Notes: a model not told the origin generated them from the sequence alone. A stretch of DNA of 64,000 nt from Candidatus Omnitrophota bacterium (GCA_043826565.1 JBDRPX010000004.1:103604-167603); one strand, 5' to 3'. Positions 2,285 through 27,100 are shown, counted from the first letter of the stretch. Translations and numbers: made by a program.

Positions 2285-2287
2285 ATA

Positions 2288-4274: not shown

Positions 4275-4303
4275 TTGACTTATATGGGAAAATGTGGTAC
4301 ACT
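4275..4303 (+). promoter_or_regulatory. sigma70-like promoter
   Basis: TTGACT at 4275-4280 is followed by a 17-nt spacer and TACACT at 4298-4303. This places the TSS a few nt before the riboswitch aptamer. Confidence 0.4.
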
Positions 4304-4307
4304 TGTA

Positions 4308-4392: not shown

Positions 4393-4406
4393 ATTAATTT
4401 ACGTTA

Positions 4407-4437
4407 CCCAGGCAGGAGTTTGCCTGGGATTTTTTTT
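4407..4437 (+). terminator. intrinsic terminator (riboswitch expression platform)
   Basis: Stem CCCAGGCA / TGCCTGGG with loop GGAGTT, followed by a T8 run. The 3' arm (AGTTTGCC) is also complementary to the aptamer's 5' P1 strand (GGCAAACT), which allows alternative folds. Confidence 0.65.
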
Positions 4438-4536
4438 CGGAATATTAAAAAGTGCCAGGTATGAATGGGGAAAATCAGTAAAAGTGCCAGGCATAATCAG
4501 GGATGAACGTAATATATAAAGGAGTTGGAGCGGAAA

Positions 4537-5694: not shown

Positions 5695-5695
5695 G

Positions 5696-6133
5696 ATGAA
5701 GGTTGTTAATTTAAATAAGCTTATTACTATCGGAATGATCAGCGTTTTTTTTATCAGCTTTTTGCAGACCGCGGTGTTTGCCGAGAAAAAAGACAGGAAA
5801 AATCCGGAGCCGCTACGCACTAATTCTACTATTAATGAAGTGGTCGGAGAAGTAGCAAGTTTTGATGGAGAAATTATTGTTATTACTTACGGAGACCCTG
5901 CTCAAACCGGGGAATCTTTTGATATGTCGATCAGTATTGAACCGGAAAATTTAGAATTAAACCATATAAAAAGTTTAGATCAAATAAAAAAGTGGAATAC
6001 CGTCAGGATCAGCTATGAAGTAATCACTGAGGAGTATGCCGAAGAAAAAGTTAAAACGCGTAATGTCGCCAGGGCGATAAGCTTTATAAAGGCTGGCAAG
6101 CCGCCGGTTTATGAGCCGGAACAGGATGAATAA
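5696..6133 (+). CDS. small secreted protein of unknown function
   Basis: N-terminal signal peptide (LITIGMISVFFISFLQTAVFA) and an AGGAGG RBS. Its start is 1 nt after the upstream stop, suggesting translational coupling. Confidence 0.55.
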   Translation: MKVVNLNKLITIGMISVFFISFLQTAVFAEKKDRKNPEPLRTNSTINEVVGEVASFDGEIIVITYGDPAQTGESFDMSISIEPENLELNHIKSLDQIKKWNTVRISYEVITEEYAEEKVKTRNVARAISFIKAGKPPVYEPEQDE

Positions 6134-6193
6134 AAGAAAGGGCAAAAGCCCTCTAACACGAATAATTTAGTAATACTAACTGAGAGGTGTCGG

Positions 6194-9100
6194 ATGAAGA
6201 TGAAAAGATCAATAGTAGTTATGATGTGTATGGTTGTTTTTTTTACAATTCACTTTGCTGGTATTGATGATGCCAAAGCCTTTCAGATTAAAAGGGTGAT
6301 CAGGGGGTCCTATAGCCAGGCAATTGATGAGGAGGTAACAGTTGTTGATCTTACTTCTTTATTGGGCGGGGTGAACCTGGTTCCTGCGAAAACTATTCTT
6401 TTTTATACTATTGATCTTGATGATGAGGATGCCGAAGAGACTTTTACCAATGTAGCTTTAGACAGCCCTTCGGATCTGCTGATCAGCCGGTTTACCTCAG
6501 GTACGGGGCTTACAGTTAATTATGAACTTGTGGAGTTTGTTTCCGGGGTTAAAGTTATGCGCGGTCTTACCACTGTTCCGGAAACAGCAACGATTAAAAC
6601 TGTAACTTTACCTCAATCCATAATTGTTAATAAATCATATGTAACGGTTAATTCTAATGCTGTAAGAGGTTCTAATCTTAATGAAGAATTAAATACGTTT
6701 GCCGCGGAAATAGTTGATGAAACTACGGTCAGGTTCACAAGAACTGTTACTACTTCCCGATTTAATAATACTCTGGCTTATCAGGTTGTTTGTTTTGAAG
6801 GCCTTGATGGTTTAGGCGATGATGTCGTCTCAGTTCAGAAAGGGATAGATATTCTTCCTTCACCTGCCGGCGGGATGAGCCTTACTGTAGGTATAAATAG
6901 TGTTCAAACTGATAAATCTTTATTAATATTTTCAAGCCGGCCGGATACTCTTGCTGACGGTGATGAAGATATAATGTGTGTGGAGGGAATATTAAATGAT
7001 GCCGGCGGCGGAATGAGTGATGCGATACTTTTTAACCGTCAGGAAAATAATAATGATGATGTCACTTTATACTGGTTTGTAATTACTTTTAGTAATGAAA
7101 CTTTTGTTCAGAGTAAAACCCAAACCTTTATTTCTAATAGTAATCCCAACTTTACCATAGACACAGCAATTGTGCCCAGCCGCAGTTTTATTCAAGCATC
7201 TGTTTCGATTACCGGAGGCGGGACATCAGGTAAAGAAGAAACTACTCATGCCTTATATATTACTAATCCTACGACCATAGATACGCAGTGTTCCACAACC
7301 AGTGCTTATACTGTAAAACTTTCCTGGTTTGTAACGGAAATGCCGCCCTTAGAAGTTACTTATCCCAACGGCGAAGAAATTTTTGAAGTCGGAACAACAG
7401 AAAATATTACCTGGAATCATTCAGATGACGTTTTAAATACAGATTCAATGAGTATTGATCTTTCTATCAACAGCGGCAGTACGTATCCTTTAAATGTTAT
7501 AACCGGAGTTGACCCGACTTTAGATACATATGCCTGGAATATTCCCGCGGAAATAAGTTCAACCGGTATTATCGGAAATACCATAAGAGTTAAAATTACA
7601 GATACGACGATCAGCGCAAGAAATTTTGATACCTCAGACGCTGACTTTATAATAAAGGGAAGATTAATTATTGATCAGCCGCCGGACACCTGGCGTTTAG
7701 GCGAGACTCAAAATATAACCTGGGATGTACACGGTAGTTTAAATAGTTTACCTACAAACACTATGACGATTATGCTTTCTACGGATGGGGGCGGAAGCTT
7801 TGCTCATACTGTGAGTGCAGTGGCTGACCCGGGTGCCGGACAGTCTGATGGAAGTGCCGGCTCCGGAAGTTATGGGTGGACTATCCCATCAGATATGGAT
7901 GGTGAAAATTTAATCGGTACGGATAATCAAATAAAACTTATTCTTAATTACGACCCGGATGCGCCGAAGACAACAGTAACCAGTACAAGTTCTAATTTTG
8001 TTTTAAAAGGGCGAATTTTTAATGTTTCCCCGGCTAGTGATGAAACCTGGTTTTTGGGTGAAACAAAAAGTATTACCTGGGATAAAAATGGACACTTCGG
8101 CGCCGGTATTGCCGAGGGAACAGTAGATGTTTATTATTCCAGTAATGGCGGTTTGTCATATGGTACTATTGTTGCTGTAAGCCAACCTGCGGGGACAGAT
8201 GGTTCGGGGGGGAGTTATAATTGGACAATACCCAATAACACTCCTTTAGAAAATCCTGATTCGAAAATTAAAGTTTTTCAAACTACAGATACTTCGGTTT
8301 ATGGAGAAAGTGCTAATTTTTCTTTAATCTCATCACTTTTGCTGGATATTCCCAGCGGTACGGGAATTCTCTGGAAAGTGGGAACGGCTCATGATATTGA
8401 GTGGACAACTGCCGGTTCGGTTAGTATGGTTGACTTGCTCTATGATTCCGGCTCGGGTTATGTTTTAATTACACCTGCCGCGGGTATAGCTAATGCCGAT
8501 GTTTACAACTGGACAATTCCCGACGCTATAAGCAATAGCGTTAAGGTAAAAGTTCAGGATCACGATAATACGAATATATACGATGAGAGTGATAATTTAT
8601 TTTCCATAAAAGGATCAATAAGTGTTACCGAGCCTCATGCAACCGAAATTACACAAGTAAGTATAAATAAAGTTATTCAGTGGAATACTACGGGAAGTGT
8701 AGCCGGAACCGTAAACATTCGTTTGTCACAGAATGGCGGTTCTTCTTATGGGAGTATCATTAATTCAGTTGACGTTTCCAGCGGTTCGTATTCCTGGGCT
8801 CCGGTTGCCGGAGATATGGGTACTAATAATGTGATCAAAGTAGGGCTGCAGGGAGATGAAGACCCGGGAACCGGGACAGCCGGGGAAACAGGAGTTTTTG
8901 CCGTAGAAGCCAGTATTGACCTTACTTATCCGGATGCTTCCGGGTTAACGTATGGTATCGGAGATGAGGTTTATATCAAATGGACATCAAACCCCGCTGC
9001 GTTTGGAAACGTAAATATACGTTACTCAACGGATGGCGGATCTAATTATAATGGATTTATTGCCGACGGTGTTGCCTCAAATAATGTTCCCGGAGGAGAG

Positions 9101-12100
9101 ACAGAGATCGGATATAAGTGGACAATTCAGGATGTCGTGGGAATGGTGAGCCCGACTTGCCGTGTAAAAGTATATCAGGTTGGGAAATTAGCACAGGTGT
9201 ATAGCGAATCACAATATGATTTTAATGTTAAAGGTACTTTGAACTTAACCGCGCCGGATGGAGGAGAAACCTGGTATGTTGACCAGTTTGAAAGTATTAC
9301 CTGGACCAAAGGCGGAGATCTAGGAACTCTAAAACTTGCCTATTCAATTAACGGCGGTTCTGACGGGTATCCGGCGACGATCGCTACCAGTATAGATGCG
9401 GATGATCTTTCTTATCCTTGGCAGATCCCGGATGCTATTGGTACGCAGTTAAAAGTAAAAGCTATTCAGGAAACAGATACAACTACTAATGATGTATCCG
9501 TAGGGGTATTTACGATTAAAGGAAGATTTTCAATATCTGCTCCGGTGGGCGGCGAGACCTGGTATGTGGGAACTCAGGAAAATATTGGGTGGACCACTTA
9601 TGGCACCATTGATAAGGTAAATTTGTATTATTCTACTGACGGCGGCGGAACATTCGGTTCTACGATCGCTACCAATCTTACCAATGCCGAAGGATATCTG
9701 TGGACAATTCCGGACGCGATAGATAATGATATCAGAGTAAGAGTAGAAAGTTTCTATGATAATACAGTTGCTCATGAATCAACCGGTAACTTTACTATTA
9801 AAGGAAGAGTTTTTGTTACCGCGCCGAACGGCCCGGAAGAATGGCGGGTCGGAGCAACGGAAAATATTACCTGGACGGTGTATGGAGCTATTGGAAATGT
9901 GGAGATTCGATATTCCACTAACAGCGGTGCCAGCTATGATACAGTTATCGTAGCCAGTACTCCGGCATTGAACCAGACTTATGCCTGGACCAATATCCCG
10001 GATGAGATCGGCACAAGTTTAAAAGTGAAAATTACCAGTATCTCAGACGGTACAGTTAATGATGAGTCAGACGCTGATTTTGAATTAAAAGGGGTTTTAA
10101 CTTTAACCGCGCCTAATGGTGCTCAGATATGGAACGTTGGGAATTCCGAAAATATTACCTGGACTAAACAGGGAACTTTGGGGAATGTGGAACTGCGTTT
10201 TTCCACGGACAGCGGCGTGACTTTCCCGGTTGGCAATGTGATCGCGACCGGTGTAGCGGCAACCGCAACACCGCATCCCTGGACAATCCCGGATAAGATC
10301 GGAGATAAGCTGCGGGTAAGAGTTATGTTATTAAATGACCCGACAAATGTTTATGATGATTCTGATAATGATTTTGAGATCAAAGGTAAGTTGACATTGA
10401 CGGCACCGAACGGGCCGGAAGAGTGGGGAGTGGGGACAAGCCAGGCAATTACCTGGGCCCGTTTTGGAAGTATCGCGAATGTTAAACTGGAATATTCCAC
10501 CGACGGGGGCAATACATTTCCTAACACGATTACAGATTCAACAAGTGCTTCCGCGCAAACTTATAATTGGACGATTCCGGACGCGATCGGAACTTCTTTG
10601 CAGGTTAAGATCAGTGATGCATCAGATGGCGCGGTGAGTGATACTTCTGATGCTAGTTTTGAAATTAAAGGCCGCTTAATATTACTGCATCCGAACGGCG
10701 CGGAAACCCTGGCGGTAAATCAGCCTTATACTATTGACTGGACAACTTATGGAACGATCAATAAAGTAAATCTCTATTATTCAATTAACGGCGGAAGCAG
10801 TTATGACGCGAATATTGTTTTAGCTTTAAATAATACCGGAAGTTATGGCTGGACAATTCCGGATGCTATCGGTTCGCAATTGCGCGTAAAGATTAATAAT
10901 GATGATGATACAACAGTCGAAGATGTGTCAAACGGTGATTTTACGATCAAAGGTTCGGTAACCTTGACCGCGCCGAATGGCGGTCAAACCTGGATCGTTG
11001 ACGATTCTCAGAATATTAGTTGGAGCAAACAGGGAAGTATCGGAACGGTGCAATTGGATTATTCGACTAATGGCGGAACCAGTTATGATTTTAGTATTGC
11101 TGCCGGGGTGGCTTCCGGGGATCTAAGCAAAGCCTGGACAATCCCGAACGCGATCAGCAATAATGTGAAAGTAAAAATTACTCAGGAATCTGATACTTCA
11201 GTTAATGATGAATCAAACGCGGCGTTTGAAATTAAAGGTTCAATACTTGTTACAGCTCCCAATGGCGCGGAATCATGGTCTATCGGCGGGACTGAAGATA
11301 TTACCTGGATACGCCATGGAAGCATTGGAAATATTCAGATCCTTTATTCAACTGACAGCGGTTCGACTTATCCGTTTACAGTGACCGGTTCAACAGACTC
11401 TTCGACACAGACATACAGCTGGGTGAACATCGCGGATACTCCATCGACAACCTGCCGTGTAAAGATGACTAGTTTGTCGGATTCCTCGGTTACTGATGAC
11501 TCAAATTCTAATTTCCGGATCAGGGCAAATATTACTTTGACCGCACCGAATGGATTAGAGGAATGGATCGTCGGGACAACTGAAAATATCACCTGGACCA
11601 AAACCGGTTCAATTCCTAATGTAGCTTTGGAATATTCACTTAACAGCGGATCGACTTATCCCAAAGCGATCGTGACAACTTCCGGTGAAGCTTTAAGTTA
11701 TACATGGACGATCCCGGATGATATTAGCGGCCTGGTGAGAGTACAGATCAGAAATACATCGGATGCGACGGTATCAGATACTTCTAATGCTGATTTCAGT
11801 ATTAAAGGGTCAGTAACCATGGAAAGTCCTGACGGCGGAGAAGTCTATGTTGTCGGTTCAGCCTATGATATTGAATGGTCATATGTCGGATCAATTCCGA
11901 ATGTAAAACTGGAATATTCTATAAACGGCGGGTCGACATTTCCCTATGAGATCATCGCGTCTACTCCGGCAGTTGCTTTAGCTTATTCCTGGACTGTTCC
12001 GGATACAATTACCGGACAGTTGGTAGTGAAAGTTTCTGATGCTGTAGATTCAACAGTTGATGATGATTCTGATGCTTATGCAAAGATCAGAGGTTCTTTA

Positions 12101-15100
12101 ACAATTACTTCGCCGAATGGAACAGAATCTTGGATAATTGATGATATCCATGCGGTTACCTGGACCAGGACCGGTTCCCTGGGGAATGCAAAGCTGGAAT
12201 ATTCCACTGATGCCGGAGCAACTTATCCGAATGTAATTATCGGTACGATCGCGACGAATCTTTTAACGCATAATTGGACGGTTCCGGATGATCCTTCTAT
12301 CCAGGTTAAGGTAAAGATTACCAGTCTAGATGATTCTACGGTTACGGATTCTTCAAATGCCAATTTTACAATTAAAGGCAGTTTAAATTTAACCGCGCCG
12401 GACGGCCCGGAAACCTGGATCGTGGGTACGACCGAAGCGATTACCTGGACTAAATTAGGTTCCTTAAATCTGGTAACATTGGAATATTCAACTAATGGCG
12501 GAACAACTTATCCGAATGTAATTAATAATTCGGTATCCGCGGCAGCTTTATCTTATAATTGGCTGATCCCGGATGTGATCGGAACACAATTAAGAGTGCG
12601 GATTACCAGTAATGATAATGCGTCGGTAACAGATGTTTCCGCGGCTAATTTTGAAATTAAGGGATCTGTTACATTAACCGCGCCGAATGGTTCAGAAATT
12701 TGGTTTGTCGGTGAATCACGTAATATTACCTGGACGCATAATGGCGCGATCGGTAATGTAAGTTTGAAATATTCTACAGACGGCGGCAGTACCTATCCGA
12801 CGACAATTACTACCGGTGTAGCGGCAACAAATCTCACCTATGGCTGGACAGTTCCGGATAATATCGGTACTCAATTAAGAGTAGAGATCACTTCAGTTAA
12901 TGATTCAGCAGTAACTGATGAATCGAATAATAATTTTACGATCAAAGGAATTTTGCTCTTAACCTCTCCGAATGGCACAGAGGAATGGATCGTGGGATCT
13001 TCGCATAATATTACCTGGAACAGAACCGGATCAATTGCCAATGTGAAACTGGAATATTCAACCGACGGCGGTACTTCTTATCCGAATGAAATTATTGCCT
13101 CTACTGATGCGGCTGCTGGGAGTTATGGGTGGACTATCCCGGATTCAATTGATACGGATATTAGGGTAAGAGTTTCTGATGCTTTGGATTCTTCGGTAAA
13201 CGATTCTTCAAATGCTAATTTTACGATTAAAGGATCAGTTACACTAACTGCGCCGAATGGGGCAGAAAACTGGGTGGTTGCTTCTCATGAGAATATTACC
13301 TGGACCAAGACCGGGACGATCCCAACCGTAGAACTGCGCTATTCATTAAACGGCGGGACAAGTTATGATACAGTTATTAATGCCACGGTAACCGGATCGA
13401 ATTTAACTTATGATTGGACAATTCCGGATGATATTTCCGCTACGGTAAAATTAAAAATAACCAATAATAATGACTCAACAGTTTATGATACCTCCAATGC
13501 TAATTTCAAGATCATCGGTAATTTAGTGGTTGTCGCGCCTAATGGAACAGAAGAATGGGTTGTGGGAACATCTGAGAATATTACCTGGACAAGAACCGGA
13601 TCAATTGCCAATGTAAAGATCGATTATTCAATTAACAGCGGTTCAACATATCCGAACGCGGTAGTGGCTTCTACCGGAGCTGCGGGTTTAAGTTATGGCT
13701 GGACAATTCCGAATTCAGTATATAAAACAATTCGGGTGCGGGTTGCAGATGCCTCAGATGTAAATGTTTATGATGTTTCCAATGCTGATTTTACGATCAT
13801 GCCGGGTTTTCAAATTACCGCGCCGAATGGTTCGGAAGTATGGACTGTAGCAAATTCCGAGGATATTACCTGGATAACAACCGGTTCATGTACAAATGTA
13901 AAACTGGGATATTCAACTAATTCCGGGTCTACTTACACAGACATCATTGCTTCTACGCCCAATACAGAAACATATGGCTGGACAATTCCGGATGATTTAT
14001 CTATATCTTGTAAAGTTAAAGTTACTGATGTAGATAATGCTAATGCGCAGGATGAAACTAACGGTTTATTTAAAATTCGCGGGAACTTAACTATTACTGT
14101 GCCGAATGGTGCAGAATCCTGGGATGTGGCGGATGTCGAGAATATTACCTGGACGAGATTCGGTAGTATTGCTGCGGCAAAATTGGAATTATCCAAAGAC
14201 GGCGGAAGCACATATCCGGTTTTGATCATTGCGTCTACAGATGCTTCTTTGCTGACTTATGCGTGGACGATCCCGGATCAGTTGACAACTCAAGGAAGAA
14301 TAAAAATAACCAATACTGCGGACTCAACGGTATATGACGTATCCAATGCGAACTTTGCGATCAAGGGTGCGGTAACTTTAGCTGCGCCGAATGGCGGCCA
14401 GGATTTGGTAGTCGGCAGTGCGTATAATATTACCTGGACACGTTTCGGTTCAATTTTAAATGTAAAACTTGAATATTCAACTAATGGCGGTACAACCTAT
14501 CCGAATCTGATCATTGCGGCAACAGACGCGACTACGGAAACTTACGGCTGGGGGATCCCGGATGCTATCGGTTCGCAATTAAGAGTAAGGATAACGGACG
14601 TAGATAATTCTTTAGTGTCTGATACTTCGGATGCTAATTTTTCAATTAAAGGCGCATTGGAATTGACTGCGCCGGTTGGCGGAGAAATATGGTTTGTTAA
14701 TAATATTGAAGCTATAACCTGGACGCGTACCGGATCAATTGCTAATGTGAAACTGGAATATTCTACAGACGGCGGATCAACCTATCCGAATACAATCGCG
14801 GCAACGGTAACTGCGTCTTTACAGACTTATGCTTGGACAATCCCGGATGCTATCGGTTCTCAGTTAAGGGTAAAAATTACCGATACTTCCAATGCTACGG
14901 TAACTGATGAATCCGGCAGTAATTTCTATATTAAAGGAAAGCTGACTCTGAGTGCACCGAACGGCGGACAGACCTGGGTCGTCGGTGAATTGCGGAACAT
15001 TACCTGGGTACGTACCGGAAGTATTGCGAATGTGAAACTGGATTACTCTACTGACGCTGGCACAACTTATCCGAATGCTATTATCGCTTCTACCGATGCT

Positions 15101-18100
15101 TCTACCGGAACTTATGGCTGGACAGTAGCTGACGCGATCGGTACAAGTTTAAAGGTAAGAGTTGAAGATGCAACGGACAATACAGTAAGTGATGTGTCTG
15201 ATCTGGTATTTGAGATAAAGGGATCGTTAGTGTTGACCGCGCCCAACGGCGGTCAGTCATGGGTTGTTGATACAAGTGAAAATATCACCTGGACTAAGAC
15301 CGGAACTATTCCGCTGGTAACTTTGGAATATTCAGTGAACGGCGGATCAAGTTATGATACGGTAATTAATAATTCTGTAACCGGATCAGACTTGACTTAT
15401 GCGTGGACAATACCGGATTCGATTGGAGCAACTGTAAAGGTAAGAATAACAAATAATGATGACGGTACTGTTTATGATACCTCAAATGCAAATTTCAAGA
15501 TTATCGGTGCTTTGGCAGTAACTGCTCCGAATGGAACAGAAGAGTGGGTAGTAGGCACATCTGAGAATATAACCTGGACCAGAACCGGAAGTATTGCCAA
15601 TGTAAAAATCGATTATTCGATCAACAGCGGTGCAACATATCCGAACGCGGTTGTGGCTTCTACCGGAGCGGCCGGATTAAGTTATAGCTGGACGATCCCG
15701 AATTCAGTATATAAGACTATCAGGGTAAAAGTAGCGGACGCTTCAGATGTAAATGTTTATGATGTTTCCAACGCTGATTTTACGATCATGCCGGGTTTTG
15801 CGATTACCGCGCCTAATGGCGGAGAAGTCTGGTCAGTATCAGATTCGGAAGATATCACCTGGATAACTACCGGTTCATGTACAAATGTAAAACTGGAATA
15901 TTCGACAAACAGCGGTTCTACGTACACAGATATTATTGCTTCTACGCCCAATACAGAAACATATGGCTGGACGATCCCGGATAATTTATCCATATCCTGT
16001 AAAGTCAGGATATCCGATGTAGATAATCCTAATGCCATAGATACAACTGACGGATTATTTAAAATTCGCGGAGCTTTAACTTTGACCAGTCCGAATGGTT
16101 TTGAATCCTGGGATGTGGCCAGTGTTCATAATATTACCTGGGCCAGATTCGGTAGTGTTGCTAATGTTAAATTAGAACTATCAAAAAATTCCGGTTCAAC
16201 TTATCCTGTTTTGATTATTGGATCAACTGATGCTTCAATATTGAGTTATTCATGGACAATTCCGGATCAATTGACGACACAGGGAAGAGTTAAGATAACG
16301 GATACTTCAGATTCAACAGTATTTGACAGCTCAAATGATGATTTTGGTATTAAAGGTGCGGTAACTTTAACCGCGCCCAACGGCGGACAAGATCTAGTGG
16401 TCGGCAGTGCGTATAATATTACCTGGACACGTTTCGGTTCAGTTCTTAATGTAAAACTGGAGTATTCAACTAATGGCGGTACAACCTATCCGAATCTGAT
16501 CATTGCGGCAACAGACGCGACCACCGGAACCTATGGCTGGGGTATCCCGGATGAGATTGGTTCTCAATTAAGAGTGAAAATTACTGATGCGGCGAATTCC
16601 CTGGTTTTTGATACTTCAGATGCAAACTTTAGCATTAAAGGTAATCTGCTTTTAAATACACCTAATGGCGGAGATATTTGGTTTGTTAATAATATTGAAA
16701 ATATAACCTGGACGCGTACCGGATCAATTGCTAATGTGAAGTTGGAATATTCAACTAATGGCGGCAGTACTTATCCGAATACAATCGCGGCAACTGTAAC
16801 AGCTTCTTTACAAACTTATGCCTGGACAATCCCGGATGCGATCGGTTCTCAGTTAAGGGTAAAAATTACCGATACTTCTAATTCTACGGTAACTGATGAG
16901 TCTAATGCAGATTTTTATATTAAAGGAAAGCTGGTAGTGAATGTGCCTAATGGCGGGCAGACCTGGATCGTCGGTGAATCCCGCAATATTACCTGGACGC
17001 GGACCGGTTCAATCGCCAATGTAAAACTTGATTATTCTACTGACGCTGGCACAACGTATCCGAATGTTATTATCGCTTCTACAGATGCTTCTACCGGAAC
17101 TTATTCCTGGACTGTACCGGATGCGATTGGAGCTAATTTAAAAGTTAGAGTTGAAGATGCAACGGATAATACAGTCGTTGATGTGTCGGATGCGGTTTTT
17201 GAGATTAAAGGCTCTTTAACCTTAACCGCGCCCAATGGCGGACAGTCATGGGTTGTTGATACAAGTGAAAATATCACCTGGACTAAGACCGGAACAATTG
17301 CCAATGTGGAATTGCGATATTCAATTGACGGAGGAACAGGATATGATTATGTGATCATTGCTTCAACGCCGGGTGCTAATTTAACTTATGCTTGGACAAT
17401 TCCGGATGATATTGGAGCAACAGTAAAAGTGAAGGTTACGGATGTAAGTGATTCTTCTGTATACGATACCTCAAATGCAAATTTCAAGATCGTGGGTGCT
17501 TTGGCAGTAACTGCTCCGAATGGAACAGAAGAGTGGGTAGTAGGCACATCTGAGAATATAACCTGGACCAGAACCGGAAGTATTACCAATGTAAAAATCG
17601 ATTATTCGATCAACAGCGGGGCAACATATCCGAACGCGGTTGTCGCTTCTACCGGAGCCGCGGGATTAAGTTATAGCTGGACGATCCCGAATTCAGTATA
17701 TAAGACCGTCAGGGTAAGAGTAGCGGATGCGTCAGATGTAAATATTTATGATGTTTCCGATGCAAATTTTACAATCATGCCTTCTTTTGCGATCACCGCG
17801 CCTAACGGCGGAGAAGTCTGGGATGTTGCCTCATCGAGAGATATTGAATGGACAACTACCGGTGATTGTACAAATGTAAAACTGGAATACTCAGTTAATT
17901 CCGGGTCGACTTATACAGATATAATAGCTTTAACGCCGAATACAGAAATCTATTCCTGGACAATTCCGGATAATTTATCCATATCCTGTAAGATCAGGAT
18001 ATCTGATGTGGATAATACTAATGCCATAGATACAACTGACGGATTATTTAAAATTCGCGGAGCTTTAACCTTAACCGCACCGAATGGATTTGAATCCTGG

Positions 18101-21100
18101 GACGTGGCAGATGTAGAGAATATTACCTGGACGAGATTCGGTTCGGTAGCTAATGTTAAGCTGGAACTTTCTAAAGACAGCGGCAGTACTTATCCGGTAA
18201 TGATCATCGCTTCCACCGATGCATCTTTGCTGACCTATGCCTGGACAATTCCGGATGAGTTAACCACAACCGGACGTGTAAAAATAACCAGTACTGCGGA
18301 TTCTACGGTACTGGACAGCTCAAATAATAATTTTGCGATCAAAGGGTCATTACTTTTAACCGCGCCCAATGGAGCAGAAGAATTAGTCGTAGGTAATGCG
18401 TTTAATGTTACCTGGAACCGCTTTGGCTCGATTATGAGTGTAAAACTGGAATATTCAACTAATAGCGGAACAACTTATCCGAATCTGATTATCGCGGCTA
18501 CGGACGCGACCACCGGAACCTATGGTTGGGGCGTACCGGATGATTTAAGTATCACAGTAAGAGTAAAAGTATCGGATGTGGATAATGCGCTTGTCTATGA
18601 TACCTCAGATGCTAATTTTATAATTAAAGGCTCTTTAACCTTAACCGCGCCTAACGGCGGAAACATTTGGTTTGTTAATGATGTGCAGAATATTACCTGG
18701 ACCAAGACCGGATCAATTGCGAATGTAAAATTAGAATATTCAACTGACGCAGGCAGCACATATCCGAATACAATTGCGGCAACAGTTGATGCGGCATTAG
18801 GAACACCGTATGCGTGGACAATACCAGACGCGATTGGTTCGCAGTTAATGGTAAAAGTAACCGATACTTCTAATGCTACGGTGACTGATGTTTCCAACGG
18901 CACTTTCTATATTAAAGGAAAGCTGGTTTTAAACGCGCCTAATGGCGGGCAGGTATGGGTTGTTGGCGAATCCCGCAGTATTACCTGGACGCGGACCGGA
19001 TCAATTTCTAATGTAAAGCTGGATTACTCTACAGACGGCGGCACAACTTATCCGAATGCTATTATCGCTTCTACAGATGCTTCTACCGGAACTTATGGCT
19101 GGACAGTAGCGGATGCGATCGGAGCCAGCTTAAAGGTAAGAGTATCAGACGCGGCGGATTCAACGGTCAATGATGTAAGTGACGCGGTATTTGAAATAAA
19201 AGGATCGATATTATTGACTGCGCCTAATGGCAGTGAAGTCTGGGAAGTGAATTCCGTACAGAATATTACCTGGACCAAGACCGGTACGATTCCTACGGTT
19301 GAATTAAGATATTCGAAAAATGCCGGAACAAGTTATGACTATATTATAAACGCGTCAGTAAGCGGCGCGGCTTTAACTTATGCCTGGACTGTACCGGATG
19401 AAATCGGTGCGACTACCCGGGTGAGGATAACTAACAATGACGATACCAGCGTATACGATACTTCTAACAGCAATTTCAAGATAGTTGGTGTTCTGGTAGT
19501 CACATCGCCGAACGGCGGGCAGGAATGGGTAGTAGGTACATCGCAGAACATCACCTGGACGCGCACCGGGTCAATCGCCAACGTGAAGATCGATTATTCG
19601 ATTAACAGCGGCAGTACATTCCCGCTGGCAGTAGTGGCATCGACACCGGCTGCCGGGTTAAACTACGCTTGGACCATCCCGAATTCCGTGTACAAGACGA
19701 TTCGGATAAGAGTAGCGGATGCTTCAGACGTGAGTGTTTATGACGATTCGAATGCTGATTTTACGATAATGCCGGCATTTAACATTACGGCGCCGGACGG
19801 CGGAGAAGTATGGGATGTCGCGTCTTCTCAGGATATTACCTGGGCGACTACTGGCTCCTGTACTAATGTGAAACTGGAATACTCAGTGAATTCCGGGTCG
19901 ACATATAATGAAATAATTGCTTCCACGCCGAATACCGAATTGTACGCGTGGACTATCCCGGATAATTTGTCGATATCCTGCAAAATCAGGATCACGGATG
20001 TCGATAACCCCAACGCGCAGGACGCGACCACCGGGTTATTTAAAATTCGCGGAGCTTTAACCTTAACCGCACCGAATGGATTTGAATCCTGGGATGTGGC
20101 GAGCGTACATAATATTACCTGGACGAGATTCGGTTCAGTAGCTAATGTTAAGCTGGAACTTTCTAAAGACAGCGGCAGCACCTATCCGATAATGATAATT
20201 GCGTCAACAGATGCATCTTTGCTGACCTATGCCTGGACAATTCCGGATGAGTTAACCACAACCGGACGTGTAAAAATATCCAGTACCGCGGATTCATCGG
20301 TACTGGACAGCTCAAATAATGATTTTGCAATTAAAGGTGCGGTGACAGTAACCGCGCCCAACGGTGGACAAGATTTGGTTGTGGGCAGTGCCTATAATAT
20401 AACCTGGACCAGGTTTGGTTCAATTATGAATGTAAAACTGGAATACTCAACTAATAGCGGAACAACCTATCCGAACCTGATCATTGCGGCAACAGACGCA
20501 ACCACCGGAACCTATGGCTGGGGCGTACCGGATGATCTTTCTACTACAGTACGGATAAAGGTAACTGATGCAGGTAATGCCTTGGTTTTTGATTCTTCAG
20601 ATGCTGATTTTACGATTAAGGGTTCCTTAACTTTAACCGCGCCCAACGGCGGGAACATTTGGTTTGTTAATGATGTGCAGAATATAACCTGGACTAAGAC
20701 CGGTTCTATCCCGACCGTGAAACTGGAATACTCAATTGACGGAGGATCAACATATCCGAATATGATCGCGGCCACAGTTGACGCGGCTTTGGGAACTCCG
20801 TATGCCTGGACGATTCCGGATGCGATTGGTTCTCAATTAATGGTAAAAGTGACGGATACCTCTAATTCATCAGTAACCGATGTTTCTAATAGTACCTTCT
20901 ATATTAAAGGAAAGCTGACTTTAACTGCGCCCAACGGCGGGCAGACCTGGATAGTTGGTGAATCCCGCAGTATTACCTGGTCAAGGATTGGGTCGATTGC
21001 TAATGTAAAAATAGATTACTCCACAGATAGCGGAACAACTTTCCCGAATGCAATAGTTGCCTCTACAGATGCTTCTACTGGAACTTATTCCTGGACAGTA

Positions 21101-24100
21101 GCTGATGCGATCAGCACGACTTTGAAAATTCGGGTATCGGATGCTTCGGACAGCACGGTCTATGATGATTCCAATGCTGATTTTGAAATTAAGGGTTCCT
21201 TAACTTTGACCGTGCCTAATGGCAGTGAAGTATGGACAGTAAATTCTGTACAAAACATCACCTGGACCAAAACTGGTACAATTTCCAATGTGGAGTTAAG
21301 ATATTCAAAAGACGGCGGATCTGCGTATGATTATGTGATTATTGGCTCAACTCCAGGTGCTGATTTAAGTTATGCCTGGACCATCCCGGATGATATTTGT
21401 TCGACAACAAGAGTTAAAATTACGGATGTAAGTGACGCGGCGGTATATGATAATTCCAATTCCAACTTTAAGATCGTGGGTGCTTTTGGGGTAACTACAC
21501 CTAATGGGGGTCAGGAATGGGTTGTTGGAAAAACCGAAAGCATTGTTTGGATAAGGACCGGTTCGATTGCTAATGCCCGCATTGAATATTCGATTAATTC
21601 CGGAACTGCGTACGGCAATCTGGTAATTGCGTCTACTCCGGCAGCCGGGTTAAGTTACGGATGGACACTACCCAATGCCGTGTATAAAACGATCAGAATT
21701 AAAGTAATGGATGCATCGGATATAAGTGTGTTTGATACTTCGGATGCTGATTTTACAATTATGCCGGAATTTACAATTACTTCCCCGGATGGCGGAGAAG
21801 TATGGGATGTAAATTCATCGGAAGATATTACCTGGAGCACTACCGGTGACTGTACAAATGTAAAATTGGAATATTCGGTCAATTCCGGTTCAACATACAC
21901 AGATATAATTGCTTTGACACCGAATACGGAAACTTATGCCTGGACAATTCCGGATAATTTATCCATATCCTGTAAGATCAGGATATCTGATGTGGATAAT
22001 CCTAATGCGATAGATACAACTGACGGATTATTTAAGATCCGCGGGGCTTTAACTTTGACCAGCCCGAATGGTTTTGAATCCTGGGATGTGGCGGATATCG
22101 AGAATGTAACCTGGACGAGATTTGGTTCGGTAGCTAATGTAAAACTGGAACTTTCTAAAGACAGCGGCAGTACTTATCCGGTTCTCATAATCGCTTCTAC
22201 AGATGCGTCTTTACTGACCTATGCCTGGACGATTCCGGACCAGCTGACAATTAACGGAAGAGTGAAAGTAACCAGTACTGCGGATTCCACGGTATTTGAC
22301 CGTTCGGATGCTGATTTTGCGATCAAAGGTGCTTTGTTGTTAACCGCGCCTAATGGCGGAGAAGAATTAGAAGTAGGAGTGCCGACAACAGTTACCTGGA
22401 ATCGTTTTGGTACGATCCTTAATGTAAAGCTGGAATATTCAACTGATGCCGGTTTGACGTTCCCGGGATTAATTATCGCGGCAACTCCTGCCGGTACAGG
22501 CAGTTATGTCTGGTCAGTGCCGGATGCGCTTTCTCCGGAAGTCAGAGTTAAAGTTACTGATGTGGCTAATTCCTTAGTTTTTGATACTTCTGATGCTGAT
22601 TTGACGATCAAGGGTAAATTAACTGTGGGCGGTCCTAATGGCGGAGAAGTGTGGTTTGTTGGTGAATCACGCAATATTACCTGGATCAGAAGCGGTTCTA
22701 TTCCCACAGTAAAACTGGAATATTCAACAAACGGCGGAGCAACTTATCCGAATATGATCGCTCCATCATATGATGCGTCTTTACTGAGTTATTCCTGGAC
22801 GGTTCCGGATGCGATTAGTATTCAGATAAGAGTTAAAGTTACGGATATCGCGAATACTACGGTTGCGGATAGTTCCAATGGCGACTTTACAATTAAAGGT
22901 TCATTGATTTTAACCGCGCCCAATGGCGGAGAAGAATGGGTTGTAAACGCGGTACAGAATATAAGCTGGAACCGGACCGGAAGTATTCCGACAGTGAAAC
23001 TGGAATACTCAACTGACGCGGGTTCAACTTATCCAAATACGATTATTGCTTCGACAAGTGCTGCGACCGGCCTTTATGCCTGGACTATCCCGGATGCGAT
23101 TGGAACACAGCTTCGCGTTCGTATATCGGATACATCGGATGCTACGGTAATGGATACATCAAATCTGAATTTTATTATTCGCGGTGTATTGCTTTTGACC
23201 GCGCCTAATGGCGGAGAAGCTTGGCAGATAGCTACGAGTAAAAATATTACCTGGAGCAGAACCGGTTCAGTTGGTTTTGTTAAGCTGCAATATTCACTTG
23301 ACGGCGGAGTAACTTTTCCGACGACAATTATTGCTTCTACCGATGCTTCTACCGGAACTTATGCCTGGACTATTCCTGATAACCCCTGTACAACAACAAA
23401 AGTAAAGATTAGTGATGCTTCAGACAGTGTTGTCGCGGATATTTCTGATGTAAATTTCAAAATAATCGGTGATTTGACTCTAACTACGCCGGTTGGTACG
23501 GAACAGTGGGTAATTGGCGGTCCGCAGAGAAAAATTTCCTGGACCATGGTGGGATCAATTGCCAATGTTAAATTAGAATATTCAATTAACAGCGGAGCAA
23601 GTTATGATTACCTGATCAATGCTTCTACTCCGGCTGGTGCTTTAGAATATTACTGGACCATTCCGGATACAGCAACGACTACCGCGAGAGTAAAAATAAC
23701 CGATGCTTCAGATATTAGTGTCGGAGATACCTCGCCGGCTGATTTTAGTATTCAGGCTGATTTTACGATCACCGCGCCCAATGGCGCAGAAGTTTGGATC
23801 GTTGGAGATTCTGAAGATATTACCTGGGGAACAGTAGGATCAGTAGGCAATGTAAAACTGGCATACTCAACTGACGGCGGCGCGACTTATCCGAATGTAA
23901 TTATTGCTTCGATTGGAAATACCGGTACATACGGCTGGACAATTCCGGACGCATTATCGGCAACTGTAAGAGTGAAAGTTTCTGATGTTAATGATGCTCA
24001 GGCTTTTGATGATTCGGATGTAAACTTTAAGATCAGAGGCGACTTGGTATTAACCGCGCCTAATGGCGGAGAAACCTGGATAGTTGCTTCCAGTCACAAT

Positions 24101-27100
24101 GTGACCTGGACAAGATTGGGGAGTATTCCGACAGTAAAACTGGAATATTCGATCAATGGCGGGCTGACTTATCCAAATTCCATTATTGCTTCTATTGCCG
24201 CTTCTTTAGGTACACATAACTGGACTATCCCGGATAATATCAGTAATCAGGTCAGGGTGAAAGTAACCGATACTTCTGATTCTACGGTTTATGATGAATC
24301 TAATTCCAATATGTTTATTAAAGGATCATTGACCTTAACTGTGCCCAATGGCGCGGAGGAATGGGTTGTCGGTACCGGAGAGAATATAACCTGGGCCAGA
24401 GTCGGTTCCATCGCTAATGTAAAACTGGAATATTCAACTAACTCCGGCGGTACTTATCCCAACACGATAATCGCTTCCACAGATGCATCCACCGGTTCTT
24501 ATGCTTGGCCGATCCCGGATGTTTTAAGTACAACATTGAGAGTCAGAGTATCAGATGTTACTGATGTTGCGGTTAATGATACTTCGAATGCAAACTTTAT
24601 GATCAAAGGTGATCTGGAACTTAATTCACCTAATGGCGGAGAGATCTGGTATGTCGGGCAGTCACGCAGTGTGACCTGGACCCGCACCGGAAGTATTGCG
24701 TCGGTGAAGCTGGAATATTCAACGGATAGCGGAACAACATTCCCGAATACAATTATTTCTTCGACAGACGCGTCCACCGGAACATATGCCTGGTCAGTTC
24801 CGGATGCGATAAGTGAAAATTTAAGAGTGAGAGTTACAGATACTTCAAATGCCACGGTATTTGATGATTCTAATCTGGATTTCACAGTTAAAGGTGTATT
24901 GTTATTGAATGCGCCCAATGGCGGAGAAACCTGGGTTGTGGCGGCCAGTCAGAATATTACCTGGACACCGACCGGAACAATTTCTAATGTAAAACTGGAA
25001 TATTCAACTGATGGCGGAAATACTTATCCGAATACGATAATCGCTTCTACTCCGGGTATGGTTGGTACATATGCCTGGACAGTTGCCGATTCAATCGGTG
25101 CGAATGCTAAGGTTAGAGTATCTGATGCTGCGGATGCGAGTGTATATGATGTATCCAATGCTACGTTTACGATTAAAGGATCATTAGTTGTAACCAGTCC
25201 GAACGGAGCGGAAGTTTGGGGAGTCGCGACAGCTCATAATATTACCTGGAGCCGCACTGGTTCAATTTCTACGGTTAAGATAGAGTATTCCACGGACGGC
25301 GGTTCAACATATCCGAATACAATTGCCGCGACAGCTGATGCCGCAACCGGAAGCTATGGCTGGACAATTCCGGATGATATTTCCAGTCAGGTTAGGGTTA
25401 AGATCACGGATAATAGCGATGCTACGGTTTTCGATGCTTCGAATGTTAACTTCAAGATCGTGGGTATTCTTGATCTTATTTCTCCGGATGGCGGAGAAAT
25501 GTGGGAAGTAAATACAAACCATAATATTACCTGGACCAGAGTCGGTTCCATAGCTAATGTGCGCTTGGATTACTCGGTTAATAGCGGAGCAACCTATCCG
25601 AATGCGATTGTTGCTTCTACACCGGCCGGAGCATTAAGCTTTACCTGGACGATCCCGGACGCAGTATCAAAAACCGTGAGAGTGCGGATTGCCGATGCTT
25701 TGGATATCAATGTGTTTGATGCTTCGACTGCGGATATGACGATTATGGCGCAGTTTAATATTACCGCGCCGGATGGCGGCGAAGTATGGACTGTAGCATC
25801 TTCGCATGATATTACCTGGGGTACGACAGGAACCGTTACCACTGTTGTTCTTGATTATTCCACGGACGGCGGGGCTACTTATCCAAATAATATTACCGGG
25901 TCCGCGGCAAATACCGGATCATTCCCCTGGACTATCCCGGATGCGATTTCTTCTCAGGTAAAGGTAAGGGTAAGTGATTATAATAATGTTGACGCGTCCG
26001 GAGCTTCTGATGCTAATTTCAAGATCAGAGGAGGTGTTACCGTAACTTCGCCGAATGGCAGTGAATCCTGGATGGTGGGGAATAGTCAAAACATTACCTG
26101 GTCAATTATTGGTTCTATTGCTAATGTTAAACTTGAGTATTCCACAGACGGCGGAGCAACATATCCGTTTACAATTATCGGTTCTGTAGACGCAACTTCA
26201 GGTACCTATGCCTGGATCATACCGGATAATATCAGTACTTCCGCAAGAGTAAAAGTTACTGATGCGACGGATTCGACAGTTTATGATACATCTAACAACA
26301 ACTTTATTATCCGCGGCGGATTGATTGTTAATATCCCGAACGGCGCTGAGGATTGGCAGATCGAATCTGTTCAGAATATTACCTGGATGCGCACCGGTTC
26401 AATTCAGAATATTAAGATAGAGTATTCAACTAATGGCGGTTCTACGTATCCAAATGTAATTGTTAATAGTTTTGATGCTTCTTTAGCGACATATCCCTGG
26501 ATGATTCCGGATACAATTACTAATCTGGCCCGAGTAAGAATAACTGATGTGGATAATGCTGCTGTATATGATACATCGGATAATAATTTCAAGATCAAAG
26601 GCGCCTTGGTAGTTAATACTCCTAATGGCGCAGAGGTATGGGAAGTAACAACCAGTCACGCGATTACCTGGTCAAGAACCGGCTCAATATCTAATATCCG
26701 GCTGGATTATTCAACTGATTCCGGAGCAACATTCCCGAATGCAATTGCGGCATCGCTTAATGCTGCTTTAGGCACCTATGCCTGGACTATCCCGGATAAT
26801 ATTTCTTCTGCGGTCCGCGTAAGGGCAACCAATATTTCTGATGCCTTGGTTTATGATGATTCTGATGCTGATTTCAAGATCGTCGGACAGCTGTTATTAA
26901 GCTCACCGGATGGCGGAGAAGTGTGGCCCGTAGGTTCTTCGCAATCGGTAATCTGGTCACCGATCGGATCGATCGTGAATGTGAAGTTAGATTTATCCAC
27001 AAACGGCGGAGTATCTTTTCCGACTGTGATCGCGGCTTCTTTGACTGCCAGTGACGGTTCATATAACTGGACTGTTCCGGATACAATTTCACAAACCGCA

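What the first reader, a model, noticed from the sequence alone, without database searches (positions are those of the whole stretch)
13500..23450. ~1.99-kb super-repeats (7 modules each), ~5 copies with near-identical DNA
Blocks beginning near 13500, 15480, 17465, 19450 and 21440 repeat the same ordered set of seven module subtypes. One subtype carries two conserved Cys (GSCTNVK...SISCKV). The 15.5-kb and 17.5-kb copies are almost identical at the nucleotide level over hundreds of bp, whereas flanking modules are only protein-similar. This pattern implies recent unequal-crossover expansion and likely copy-number polymorphism within the population. Short-read assemblies will collapse or mis-size it.
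Basis: seen in the sequence. Interest (0 to 1): 0.55.

Follow-up and report, generated by a model that had tools for sequence, protein, structure and literature searches.

The report
Old seven-domain super-repeat in giant surface protein
The ~2-kb repeats are real: they are blocks of seven Ig-like domains duplicated inside the stalk of an 8,939-residue membrane-anchored surface fibre of an Omnitrophota bacterium, but the copies are old and well diverged rather than recently expanded, so this is an ordinary (if elegant) example of how giant repeat proteins grow.

Summary
Observation confirmed, with corrections. One intact ORF (6194-33013, 8,939 aa) encodes a signal peptide, a 360-aa head, 81 contiguous ~95-aa Ig-like modules (Pfam Kre9_KNH), a helix-rich C-terminal region and one C-terminal TM helix. 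Modules 22-56 form five ordered seven-module units of 1,989-1,992 nt. One subtype carries the conserved Cys pair. The period fades but is still detectable from ~11.5 to ~27.5 kb.

"Near-identical DNA" is overstated. Mean identity between neighbouring units is 77%. The best tract is 294 nt at 95% (15476-15769 vs 17465-17758). The longest exact repeat is 90 nt.

"Recent expansion" is not supported. The youngest unit pair has dS about 0.64, and other pairs have dS 1.1-1.7 with dN/dS about 0.1-0.2. This is as old as, or older than, a species split among relatives.

The same ~2-kb period, subtype order and Cys pair occur in syntenic orthologues from other Omnitrophota. Complete orthologue arrays have 38, 56 and 81 modules. 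Core copies cluster by genome, and short low-dS patches indicate gene conversion, so in-register unequal exchange is real but slow.

Short-read fragmentation is demonstrated. Population copy-number polymorphism remains untested. This is a new member of a known kind, and interest is low to moderate.

The parts
6194..33013 (+). Single intact ORF of 8,939 aa: a giant cell-surface fibre protein
   Evidence: ORF list. Translation has no internal stop. Only two hydrophobic segments, aa 3-27 and 8868-8902.
6194..6280 (+). N-terminal signal peptide (MKMKRSIVVMMCMVVFFTIHFAGIDDAKA)
   Evidence: Sequence. Hydropathy peak at aa 3-27. The cleavage site is inferred from the AKA motif and was not predicted by a dedicated tool.
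6281..7354 (+). N-terminal 'head' (aa 30-387): no Pfam match, fast-evolving distal tip
   Evidence: No Pfam hit at E<=1. 173 representative homologues, almost all at the N-terminus of long proteins, and three of the four scanned are followed by Kre9_KNH modules. Only about 26% identical to syntenic orthologues, against 65-86% for stalk modules.
7355..30571 (+). Stalk: 81 contiguous Ig-like modules of about 95 aa (Pfam PF10342 Kre9_KNH type)
   Evidence: Self-built HMM segmentation. Pfam Kre9_KNH at 124 bits against a cut-off of 24.6. The AlphaFold2 model of modules 29-35 has pLDDT 94 and shows seven beta-sandwich domains. Foldseek hits are Ig/FN3/macroglobulin-domain strings.
11537..13528 (+). 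Faded 5' super-repeat period (modules 15-21), one-to-one orthologous with relatives
   Evidence: +7 DNA identity is 0.52-0.72 against a background of 0.55-0.57. These modules form orthologue clades with L013/L015.
13529..15517 (+). Core super-repeat copy 1 (modules 22-28, subtypes a-g)
15518..17506 (+). Core super-repeat copy 2 (modules 29-35)
   Evidence: This unit was modelled by AlphaFold2.
17507..19498 (+). Core super-repeat copy 3 (modules 36-42)
19499..21490 (+). Core super-repeat copy 4 (modules 43-49)
21491..23479 (+). Core super-repeat copy 5 (modules 50-56). Its 3' modules (53-56) already have one-to-one orthologues in relatives.
23480..27469 (+). Two faded 3' periods (modules 57-70), one-to-one orthologous with relatives
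   Evidence: +7 DNA identity is 0.55-0.66. Orthologue clades with L004/L005/L007/L008.
15476..15769 (+). High-identity tract, copy A (95.2% to 17465-17758). Includes the longest exact repeat (90 nt, 15506-15595). Probable gene-conversion patch.
   Evidence: dS is 0.18 here against 0.5-1.2 in the rest of the unit pair. Binomial P = 4e-12 against the unit-wide mismatch rate.
17465..17758 (+). High-identity tract, copy B
13814..14092 (+). Subtype-b module with conserved Cys pair (first of five; the others start at 15803, 17792, 19784 and 21776)
   Evidence: The Cys pair sits at the same positions in every complete core-type b module aligned from relatives L004, L005, L006, L007, L008 and L015, and is absent from flank b modules.
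30572..32824 (+). C-terminal non-repeat region: beta domains alternating with long helices (coiled-coil-like)
   Evidence: 10 homologues, mostly Omnitrophota partial proteins. The AlphaFold2 model is low-confidence (pLDDT 59) and includes a helix of about 106 residues. No Pfam family.
32825..33010 (+). C-terminal TM helix (aa ~8878-8900) plus charged tail ending in KKKKRK
   Evidence: Sequence. Hydropathy peak of 2.89 at aa 8868-8902.

Best explanation
The region is the central part of the stalk of a giant (8,939 aa) Sec-exported cell-surface fibre of an Omnitrophota bacterium. The fibre is anchored by a C-terminal TM helix. The stalk is a string of 81 Ig-like beta-sandwich modules.

An ancestral block of seven already-different modules (subtypes a-g) was amplified as a unit. 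Modules of the same subtype are the most similar DNA available, so later unequal crossovers and gene conversions occurred in register, at multiples of about 1.99 kb. This preserved a seven-module higher-order repeat.

Turnover is concentrated in the centre of the array. Five core units there are 65-93% identical in DNA and cluster by genome. The array edges have drifted into unique modules with one-to-one orthologues in relatives.

The process is slow. The youngest whole-unit pair has dS about 0.64 and the rest have dS above 1, all under purifying selection. Only short patches, such as 294 nt at 95%, reflect later gene conversion.

Inferred function: the array is a spacer that projects the fast-evolving N-terminal head away from the cell. 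I estimate roughly 0.3 um, from 81 domains at about 4 nm each. Block duplication lengthens the stalk while keeping neighbouring domains only about 49% identical.

Shown here: architecture, periodicity, divergence levels, orthology pattern and assembly fragmentation. Inferred: surface exposure, the spacer/adhesin role and the recombination mechanism.
For: ARCHITECTURE.
- Single ORF with a signal peptide and one C-terminal TM helix.
- 81 modules.
- Pfam Kre9_KNH.
- AlphaFold2 pLDDT 94 with seven beta-sandwiches and Ig-string fold matches.

PERIODICITY.
- BLASTN off-diagonals at 1-6 x 1989 nt.
- Identity peaks only at module offsets +7, +14 and +21.

AGE.
- Per-module dS is 0.18 to >2 and dN/dS is 0.05-0.37.
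- Pooled dS is 0.64 for U1/U2 and 1.1-1.7 for the other core pairs.
- For comparison, dS is 0.59 between L004 and L005 orthologues and 1.5-1.8 between the window and its relatives.

UNIT DUPLICATION PLUS CONVERSION.
- Largely congruent trees, ((U1,U2),(U3,U4),U5).
- Significant heterogeneity of synonymous divergence along unit pairs (p = 1.7e-5 and 2.5e-8), and the 294-nt tract (P = 4e-12).

CENTRE-BIASED TURNOVER.
- Modules 1-20 and 53-81 map colinearly one-to-one onto relatives. Core modules map many-to-few.
- Core copies cluster by genome. W43, W50, W23 and W44 branch deeper, so a multi-copy core predates the split.

OLD FAMILY TRAIT.
- A period of 1989-2103 nt is the top or a near-top self-match in L004-L008, L010, L011, L021-L023, L026 and L028.
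- The a-g order and the Cys pair are conserved in L006.
- Synteny Y1-Tnp-like, giant gene, atpH-atpA in all relatives.
- Complete arrays of 38 (L028), 56 (L022) and 81 modules.

LITERATURE.
- The Omnitrophota survey concludes that its long-gene repeats are not recent tandem expansions (10.64898/2026.06.07.730766).
- Multidomain proteins usually keep neighbouring domains below 50% identical (PMC8201768).
Against: - No experimental or read-level data: expression, surface exposure and actual fibre length are inferred.
- dS estimates above about 1 are close to saturation, so the relative ages of the older units are imprecise.
- Clustering of core copies by genome cannot by itself separate lineage-specific duplication from concerted evolution.
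- The tree ((U1,U2),(U3,U4),U5) has only moderate bootstrap support for subtypes f and g.
- How an inner-membrane-anchored 8,900-aa ectodomain would pass an outer membrane, if there is one, is unexplained.
- The head has no recognisable adhesive domain, so 'adhesin' is an analogy.
- A few extra, more similar copies could have been collapsed in the window's own assembly. This cannot be excluded without reads.
Confidence: 0.8

Rival explanations
1. The super-repeats are a recent unequal-crossover expansion whose copy number is polymorphic in the population. This would be a 'periscope-protein'-like variable-length stalk.
For: - An in-register period, and genome-specific clustering of core copies.
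- A 294-nt tract at 95% identity and exact repeats of 31-90 nt. From my own knowledge of E. coli work, such lengths exceed the minimal length for RecA-dependent recombination.
- Array length differs among orthologues: 38, 56 and 81 modules.
- Relatives' MEGAHIT/SPAdes contigs break in the core. This might reflect more similar copies or strain heterogeneity there.
Against: - Whole-unit dS is 0.64-1.7 and mean DNA identity is 77%.
- Adjacent modules are only 57% identical in DNA and 49% in protein. Periscope proteins rely on high DNA identity between tandem repeats (PMC8201768).
- L004 and L005 (dS 0.59) are colinear over 13 kb with no unit indel in the assembled part.
- No variant junctions or second assemblies were found.
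Confidence: 0.1
2. The seven-domain period is a selected structural ruler, like titin and nebulin super-repeats. It would match a periodic partner such as a surface lattice, a sheath or a partner filament. It would not simply be a by-product of how duplication proceeds.
For: - The roughly seven-module period persists in many lineages, even at about 65% DNA identity.
- Subtype identities, order and a subtype-specific Cys pair are conserved under purifying selection.
Against: - Inheritance from one amplified ancestral unit, plus homology-guided in-register exchange, explains all of this without a partner.
- Total module numbers (38, 56, 81) are not all multiples of seven.
- L006 shows a unit lacking a and b.
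- No candidate periodic partner was identified in the conserved neighbourhood.
Confidence: 0.06
3. Assembly artefact: the repeat number or order in the window is a mis-join or chimera of strain variants.
For: Repeats fragment short-read assemblies here and in relatives. I could not verify the core with reads.
Against: - Every unit is distinct. Whole units differ from one another by about 18% or more in DNA, and the most similar single module pair differs by 7%. None can be a duplicated artefact.
- The 26.8-kb frame is open, with perfectly regular module boundaries.
- An independent k=31 assembly is 100% identical up to the first long repeat, and again downstream of the gene.
- The longest exact repeat is only 90 nt, which is resolvable by ordinary reads.
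- Relatives show the same period and order.
Confidence: 0.04

Closest known systems
Fibrillar adhesins / 'Periscope Proteins' (SasG, Aap, Rib/alpha C, Sgo_0707, Esp, CdrA; PMC8201768, PMC8286594, PMC9210967)
   Same: Same overall layout: an N-terminal functional head, a long rod of tandem Ig-like domains and a C-terminal anchor. The stalk grows and shrinks by intragenic recombination. The repeats break short-read assemblies.
   Different: - Periscope stalks have highly identical adjacent repeats and documented strain-to-strain length variation.
- Here neighbours are 49% identical in protein and 57% in DNA. Similarity appears only at +7 modules (mean 77% DNA), and the copies are old (dS 0.64 or more).
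- The anchor is a TM helix, not LPXTG or a T1SS retention module.
- No known adhesive domain is present.
- The host is an uncultured Omnitrophota bacterium.
Titin (7- and 11-domain) and nebulin (7-module) super-repeats (my own knowledge; titin I65-I70, PDB 3b43, is among the fold hits)
   Same: An ordered set of distinct Ig-like domain subtypes is repeated as a block. Identity is far higher between equivalent positions of different blocks than between neighbours. The most recent homogenisation is in the centre of the array.
   Different: - Titin and nebulin periods match a known partner lattice (thick or thin filament). No partner is known here.
- The domain family is different (Kre9_KNH-type).
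- This protein is bacterial and extracytoplasmic.
Omnitrophota giant proteins: 'tandem-repeat scaffold' class, Dockerin-type and Archaeovorins (10.1101/2023.11.21.568195; 10.64898/2026.06.07.730766)
   Same: - Same phylum.
- Signal peptide plus TM topology.
- A repeat scaffold whose nucleotide repeats have largely decayed.
- Pilus/T2SS-like genes nearby.
- Assemblies fragment at the repeats.
   Different: - At 8,939 aa it is well below the 30,000-aa or larger proteins that the 2023 preprint treats as giant.
- The dominant Pfam is Kre9_KNH. It is not named among the repeat-scaffold families in the passages I read (TSP3, ConA-like, NHL, PATR, WD, HEAT, TPR).
- No dockerin, TSP3, HEAT, SecA or enzymatic domains.
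- A seven-module higher-order period was not mentioned in the passages I read.
Higher-order repeats of alpha-satellite DNA (my own knowledge; DNA-level analogy only)
   Same: A multi-monomer unit is homogenised in register by unequal exchange. The array centre is homogeneous and the edges are diverged.
   Different: This is coding sequence under purifying selection. Identity is far lower and turnover far slower.

Membership tests
Pfam PF10342 (Kre9/KNH-like N-terminal Ig-like domain) repeat proteins | Significant match to the PF10342 HMM above its gathering score | tested here: met
   75-124 bits against a cut-off of 24.6 in three segments of the protein. Homologues carry the same Pfam.
Pfam PF10342 (Kre9/KNH-like N-terminal Ig-like domain) repeat proteins | Ig-like beta-sandwich fold | tested here: met
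   AlphaFold2 pLDDT 94, seven all-beta domains. Foldseek top hits are Ig/FN3/MG-domain strings.
Fibrillar adhesin | Stalk of tandem repeated folded domains | tested here: met
   81 contiguous modules.
Fibrillar adhesin | Export signal and cell-surface anchor | tested here: inconclusive
   A signal-peptide-like N-terminus and a single C-terminal TM helix with a basic tail. No LPXTG, T1SS, T5SS or T9SS signal was seen by Pfam. Passage beyond the cytoplasmic membrane is not shown.
Fibrillar adhesin | Recognised adhesive (ligand-binding) domain | tested here: not met
   The head (aa 30-387) has no Pfam match at E<=1. It belongs to an uncharacterised N-terminal domain family. Binding function is not testable here.
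Periscope proteins | Tandemly arrayed domains with high sequence identity, especially at DNA level, between repeats | tested here: not met
   Adjacent modules are 57% identical in DNA and 49% in protein. At +7 modules the mean is 77% DNA. The longest exact repeat is 90 nt. The criterion comes from PMC8201768.
Periscope proteins | Repeat-number variation between closely related strains | not testable with these tools
   No reads or same-species assemblies were found. Only deep between-lineage differences are seen: 38, 56 and 81 modules.
Titin/nebulin-type super-repeat | Ordered set of distinct domain subtypes repeated as a block, with higher identity between blocks than within them | tested here: met
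Titin/nebulin-type super-repeat | Period matched to a periodic binding partner | not testable with these tools
   No partner was identified in the conserved neighbourhood.
Omnitrophota Archaeovorin / Dockerin-type giant proteins (West-Roberts et al. 2023) | Length of 30,000 aa or more, with HEAT/SecA-like/enzymatic domains (Archaeovorin) or dockerin plus TSP3 repeats (Dockerin-type) | tested here: not met
   8,939 aa. Pfam finds only Kre9_KNH and overlapping weak Ig-like families.

The most novel reading that the evidence does not exclude
The seven-domain super-repeat, with its conserved subtype order and subtype-specific disulfide, is a selected structural period of a fibre longer than the cell. 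In this reading the fibre uses a hypervariable N-terminal head to recognise specific host or prey cells, and the period matches a periodic partner or sets discrete length steps of about 28 nm. It would be a bacterial counterpart of titin/nebulin rulers in an episymbiotic or predatory nanobacterium. The evidence (conserved period, order and Cys pair in many lineages; head about 26% identical against stalk 65-86%) does not exclude this. Simple inheritance plus in-register recombination explains the same facts.
Probability: 0.08. Interest if true: 0.65.

Novelty: new member of a known kind. Interest (0 to 1): 0.3.

Why it matters
- It is a clean, quantified example of how a giant bacterial surface protein grows. 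Duplication occurs in multi-domain blocks, which keeps neighbouring domains dissimilar. In-register exchange then maintains a higher-order repeat for a very long time.
- It corrects a tempting inference: a visible ~2-kb DNA periodicity does not mean recent expansion or population polymorphism.
- It shows concretely where k-mer assemblies break: at the first exact repeat of length k or more.
- It defines a conserved syntenic locus (Y1-transposase-like gene, giant fibre gene, F-ATPase operon) in an Omnitrophota clade. The head is fast-evolving and the stalk ranges from 38 to 81 modules, which may bear on host attachment in these largely uncultured, possibly episymbiotic bacteria.

Tried and rejected
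1. Tandem Repeats Finder found nothing in the array, because its maximum period is 500 and identity is too low. Self-BLASTN and HMM segmentation were needed instead.
2. A search for same-population fragments with alternative unit junctions failed. The protein database returned only hits at 60% identity or less. An exact 40-mer scan of JGI metagenomes returned 0 hits. A guessed 3' Logan gene fragment (23336-33013) is not on record.
3. A PDB sequence search with two modules gave no significant hit.
4. The head and the C-terminal region have no Pfam family.
5. The AlphaFold2 model of the C-terminal 813 aa was low-confidence (pLDDT 59). Its Foldseek matches are generic Ig-like hits with TM-scores of 0.3 or below, so I treat them as uninformative.
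6. The head was not modelled, because only one admissible homologue (P0131) was available.
7. I considered and rejected pseudogene or frameshift, because the ORF is intact.
8. I considered and rejected membership of the Archaeovorin or Dockerin-type giants, because the defining domains are absent.
9. I considered and rejected a mobile-element origin for the upstream IS200-like ORF, because it is syntenic across all relatives.
10. Contig ends of split MAG genes were tested for overlap to bound the copy number. L015 vs L004 is 77% identical, and L013 vs L007 has no near-identical overlap. These are therefore different copies, and the relatives' core copy number stays unknown.

Full report
WHAT IS THERE

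The finding lies inside one intact ORF, 6194-33013 (+), of 8,939 aa. The translation has no internal stop. The protein begins with a signal-peptide-like segment (MKMKRSIVVMMCMVVFFTIHFAGIDDAKA). It ends with a single hydrophobic helix (aa ~8878-8900) followed by a charged tail ending in KKKKRK. A hydropathy scan finds no other TM-like segment in the whole protein.

An HMM built iteratively from the protein itself finds 81 contiguous modules of about 95 aa, from aa 388 to 8123 (nt 7355-30571), separated by 3-4 residues. Pfam assigns them to PF10342 (Kre9/KNH-like N-terminal Ig-like domain), with 124 bits against a cut-off of 24.6. Weaker overlapping hits include Reelin_subrepeat-B and Tli3.

An AlphaFold2 model of modules 29-35 is confident (mean pLDDT 94) and shows seven all-beta sandwich domains. 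Foldseek against the PDB returns strings of Ig/FN3/macroglobulin-type domains, including titin I65-I70. The 360-aa head and the 813-aa C-terminal region have no Pfam family.

The window is ~41% GC. All genes are co-directional and GC skew is positive throughout. Homologues are overwhelmingly from Omnitrophota MAGs.

CHECKING THE OBSERVATION

- Self-BLASTN of the gene gives off-diagonals at 1989, 3978, 5970, 7962, 9951 and 11949 nt. The first covers 12.4 kb at 72% identity.
- At module resolution, identity peaks only at offsets +7, +14 and +21.
- In the core (modules 21-54), the +7 offset gives a mean of 80% protein and 77% DNA identity. Every other offset gives about 49% and 57%.
- The Cys motif G[SD]CTNVK...SISCK[VI] is present in exactly the five core 'b' modules.

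1. The period extends beyond the stated coordinates. A fading +7 signal covers modules 15-21 and 57-70, about 11.5-27.5 kb.
2. 'Near-identical' applies to one tract only: 294 nt at 95.2% (15476-15769 vs 17465-17758), with a sharp left edge. Elsewhere, same-subtype modules are 65-89% identical in DNA.
3. The longest exact repeat in the gene is 90 nt. Only 20 exact repeats reach 31 nt or more.

HOW OLD ARE THE COPIES?

Nei-Gojobori estimates between same-subtype modules give dS from 0.18 (modules 29/36) to saturation. dN/dS is 0.05-0.37.

| Comparison (pooled) | dS | dN |
|---|---|---|
| U1/U2, youngest unit pair | 0.64 | 0.11 |
| U3/U4 | 1.13 | 0.13 |
| Other core unit pairs | 1.1-1.7 | 0.15-0.30 |
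| L004 vs L005 orthologous flank modules (87% DNA identity over 13 kb) | 0.59 | 0.04 |
| Window vs nearest relatives, orthologous flank modules | 1.5-1.8 | 0.18-0.22 |
| Neighbouring, non-equivalent modules (saturation level) | ~2.0 | 0.44 |

Units are phased b..g,a, which is the phase that makes the trees congruent.

Even the youngest whole-unit duplication is therefore about as old as a species-level split. The older ones approach the age of the split from the nearest sampled relatives. 'Recent' is not supported. This agrees with the general conclusion of a 2026 survey of Omnitrophota long genes: substitutions have accumulated between copies, and the repeat architecture is not a product of recent tandem expansion (10.64898/2026.06.07.730766).

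HOW DID THE PATTERN ARISE?

With the unit phased b..g,a, bootstrap NJ trees of the five core copies mostly agree on ((U1,U2),(U3,U4),U5). Support is good for subtypes a-e and weaker for f and g. This fits tandem duplication or homogenisation of whole units between neighbours.

Synonymous divergence is significantly heterogeneous along a given unit pair: U1-U2 p = 1.7e-5 and U3-U4 p = 2.5e-8. The 294-nt tract is far too similar for its unit pair (P = 4e-12). This indicates short gene-conversion patches laid over the older duplications.

COMPARATIVE EVIDENCE

Scans of GTDB genomes and JGI metagenomes returned 28 related loci. These are true orthologues. The order Y1-transposase-like gene, giant gene, atpH-atpA is conserved throughout.

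- In the closest relatives, modules 1-20 and 53-81 map colinearly one-to-one onto the window at 60-86% aa identity. The core maps many-to-few.
- In per-subtype trees, flank modules form clean orthologue clades, whereas core copies cluster mostly by genome. Some window copies (W43, W50, W23, W44) branch outside the relatives' clade, so a multi-copy core predates the split.
- The ~2-kb period is the top or a near-top self-match in many relatives. It is 1989-1992 nt in L004-L008, and 2010-2103 nt in L010, L011, L021-L023, L026 and L028.
- L006 repeats the same a-g order. The Cys pair sits at identical positions in every complete core-type b module aligned from relatives, and in no flank b module.
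- Complete arrays have 38 modules (L028, a complete 4,918-aa ORF inside a 600-kb contig), 56 (L022) and 81 (this window).

The higher-order repeat is thus an old family trait. Slow, centre-biased, in-register turnover changes stalk length between lineages.

ASSEMBLY BEHAVIOUR

Three Logan contigs from run SRR26275510 are 100% identical to the window. The one that enters the gene (L003 = window 655-13975) ends exactly where the first exact repeat of 31 nt or more begins: 38 nt at 13946 = 15935. This is what a k=31 de Bruijn assembly would do; that Logan uses k=31 is my own knowledge.

In the GTDB loci, the array runs off a contig end in essentially every case. Genes are split over two contigs in at least three MAGs. 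Those contig ends do not overlap. Fragmentation is therefore demonstrated.

Collapse or mis-sizing is not demonstrated. With a longest exact repeat of 90 nt, the window's own copies are resolvable by ordinary reads or large k.

WHAT IT MOST LIKELY DOES (INFERENCE)

The layout is signal peptide, head, long Ig-like rod, helix-rich base and TM anchor. This is the layout of fibrillar adhesins (PMC8286594, PMC9210967) with a TM anchor.

The head is the fast-evolving part. It is about 26% identical between syntenic orthologues, against 65-86% for stalk modules, 55-59% for the anchor region and 67-78% for neighbouring genes. It belongs to an uncharacterised family of 173 representatives, found almost always at the N-terminus of long proteins. 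Three of the four representatives scanned carry Kre9_KNH modules downstream of the head.

The stalk would then be a spacer of roughly 0.3 um. That figure is my estimate from 81 domains at about 4 nm each, and it was not measured.

Block duplication of seven dissimilar modules lengthens the rod while keeping neighbours about 49% identical. This is in the range thought to limit inter-domain misfolding (discussed in PMC8201768). Whether that is selected or incidental is unknown.

COMPARISON WITH KNOWN SYSTEMS

- It works like a fibrillar-adhesin or periscope stalk. It fails the periscope criterion of high DNA identity between adjacent repeats, and strain-level length variation could not be tested.
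- It formally resembles titin/nebulin super-repeats, but no periodic partner is known.
- It belongs to the broad 'tandem-repeat scaffold' kind of Omnitrophota long proteins. It is not an Archaeovorin or a Dockerin-type giant.

VERDICT

The mechanism (in-register unequal exchange) is supported. 'Recent' is contradicted. Population polymorphism is untested and less likely than claimed. The assembly warning is borne out as fragmentation. I rate it a new member of a known kind, with interest about 0.3.

Noticed in passing
window 6281-7354 (aa 30-387 of the giant protein): The N-terminal head is hypervariable. It is about 26% identical to the heads of syntenic orthologues (L015, L014, L011, L025-L027), while the stalk, the anchor and neighbouring genes are 55-86% identical. 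It has no Pfam family, but 173 representative homologues exist, almost always at the N-terminus of long proteins.
   Followed up: partly
window 4525-5694 (+): A 389-aa ORF with an N-terminal IS200-like Y1 transposase domain, a TM segment and a C-terminal domain. It sits immediately upstream of the giant gene in relatives whose 5' flank was recovered: L013, L015 and L025-L029, at 30-69% identity. It looks like a conserved, domesticated partner gene rather than a mobile element. Its function is unknown.
   Followed up: partly
window 5696-6133 (+): A small 145-aa ORF with a signal-peptide-like N-terminus lies between the Y1-like gene and the giant gene. Only L026 gave a weak tblastn match (29% identity).
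   Followed up: partly
window 1402-1452, 33136-33188, 33825-33855, 42183-42214, 43593-43625: Short tandem repeats with a 14-nt (7+7) period occur in several intergenic regions. Two of them lie in the unusually long (~1 kb) non-coding gap between the giant gene and atpH (33014-34000). They may be regulatory or may be a genome-wide repeat class.
   Followed up: no
window 38750-47900 (+): A type IV pilus / T2SS-like cluster lies about 6 kb downstream of the giant gene. It includes a PilB-like ATPase with MshEN and PilZ domains, a PilC-like protein, pseudopilins and PilM/PilN. This echoes reports that Omnitrophota giant genes sit near T2SS/pilus loci (10.1101/2023.11.21.568195; 10.64898/2026.06.07.730766).
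   Followed up: no
L010 17478-18202; L021 14208-15013; L023 18107-18831: In three relatives, the match to the C-terminal anchor region lies just beyond the end of the longest open frame that carries the array. The gene is either split there, or the assemblies carry a frameshift.
   Followed up: no
L006, L010, L012, L016 (GTDB records): Contigs carrying this Omnitrophota-type gene are filed under MAGs labelled Planctomycetota, Planctomycetales, Thermoplasmata archaeon and Fibrobacterota. L010 also carries the atpH-atpA synteny. This probably reflects binning contamination or mislabelling rather than true distribution.
   Followed up: no
window 33922 (start of Logan contig L002) and 36300-36326 (L002/L001 junction): The k=31 Logan assembly also breaks at 33922 and near 36300, where the window has no internal repeat of 31 nt or more. 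Only a 22-nt repeat (33914 = 44709) lies nearby. The cause is unknown; possibilities include repeats elsewhere in the genome, strain variation or coverage.
   Followed up: no
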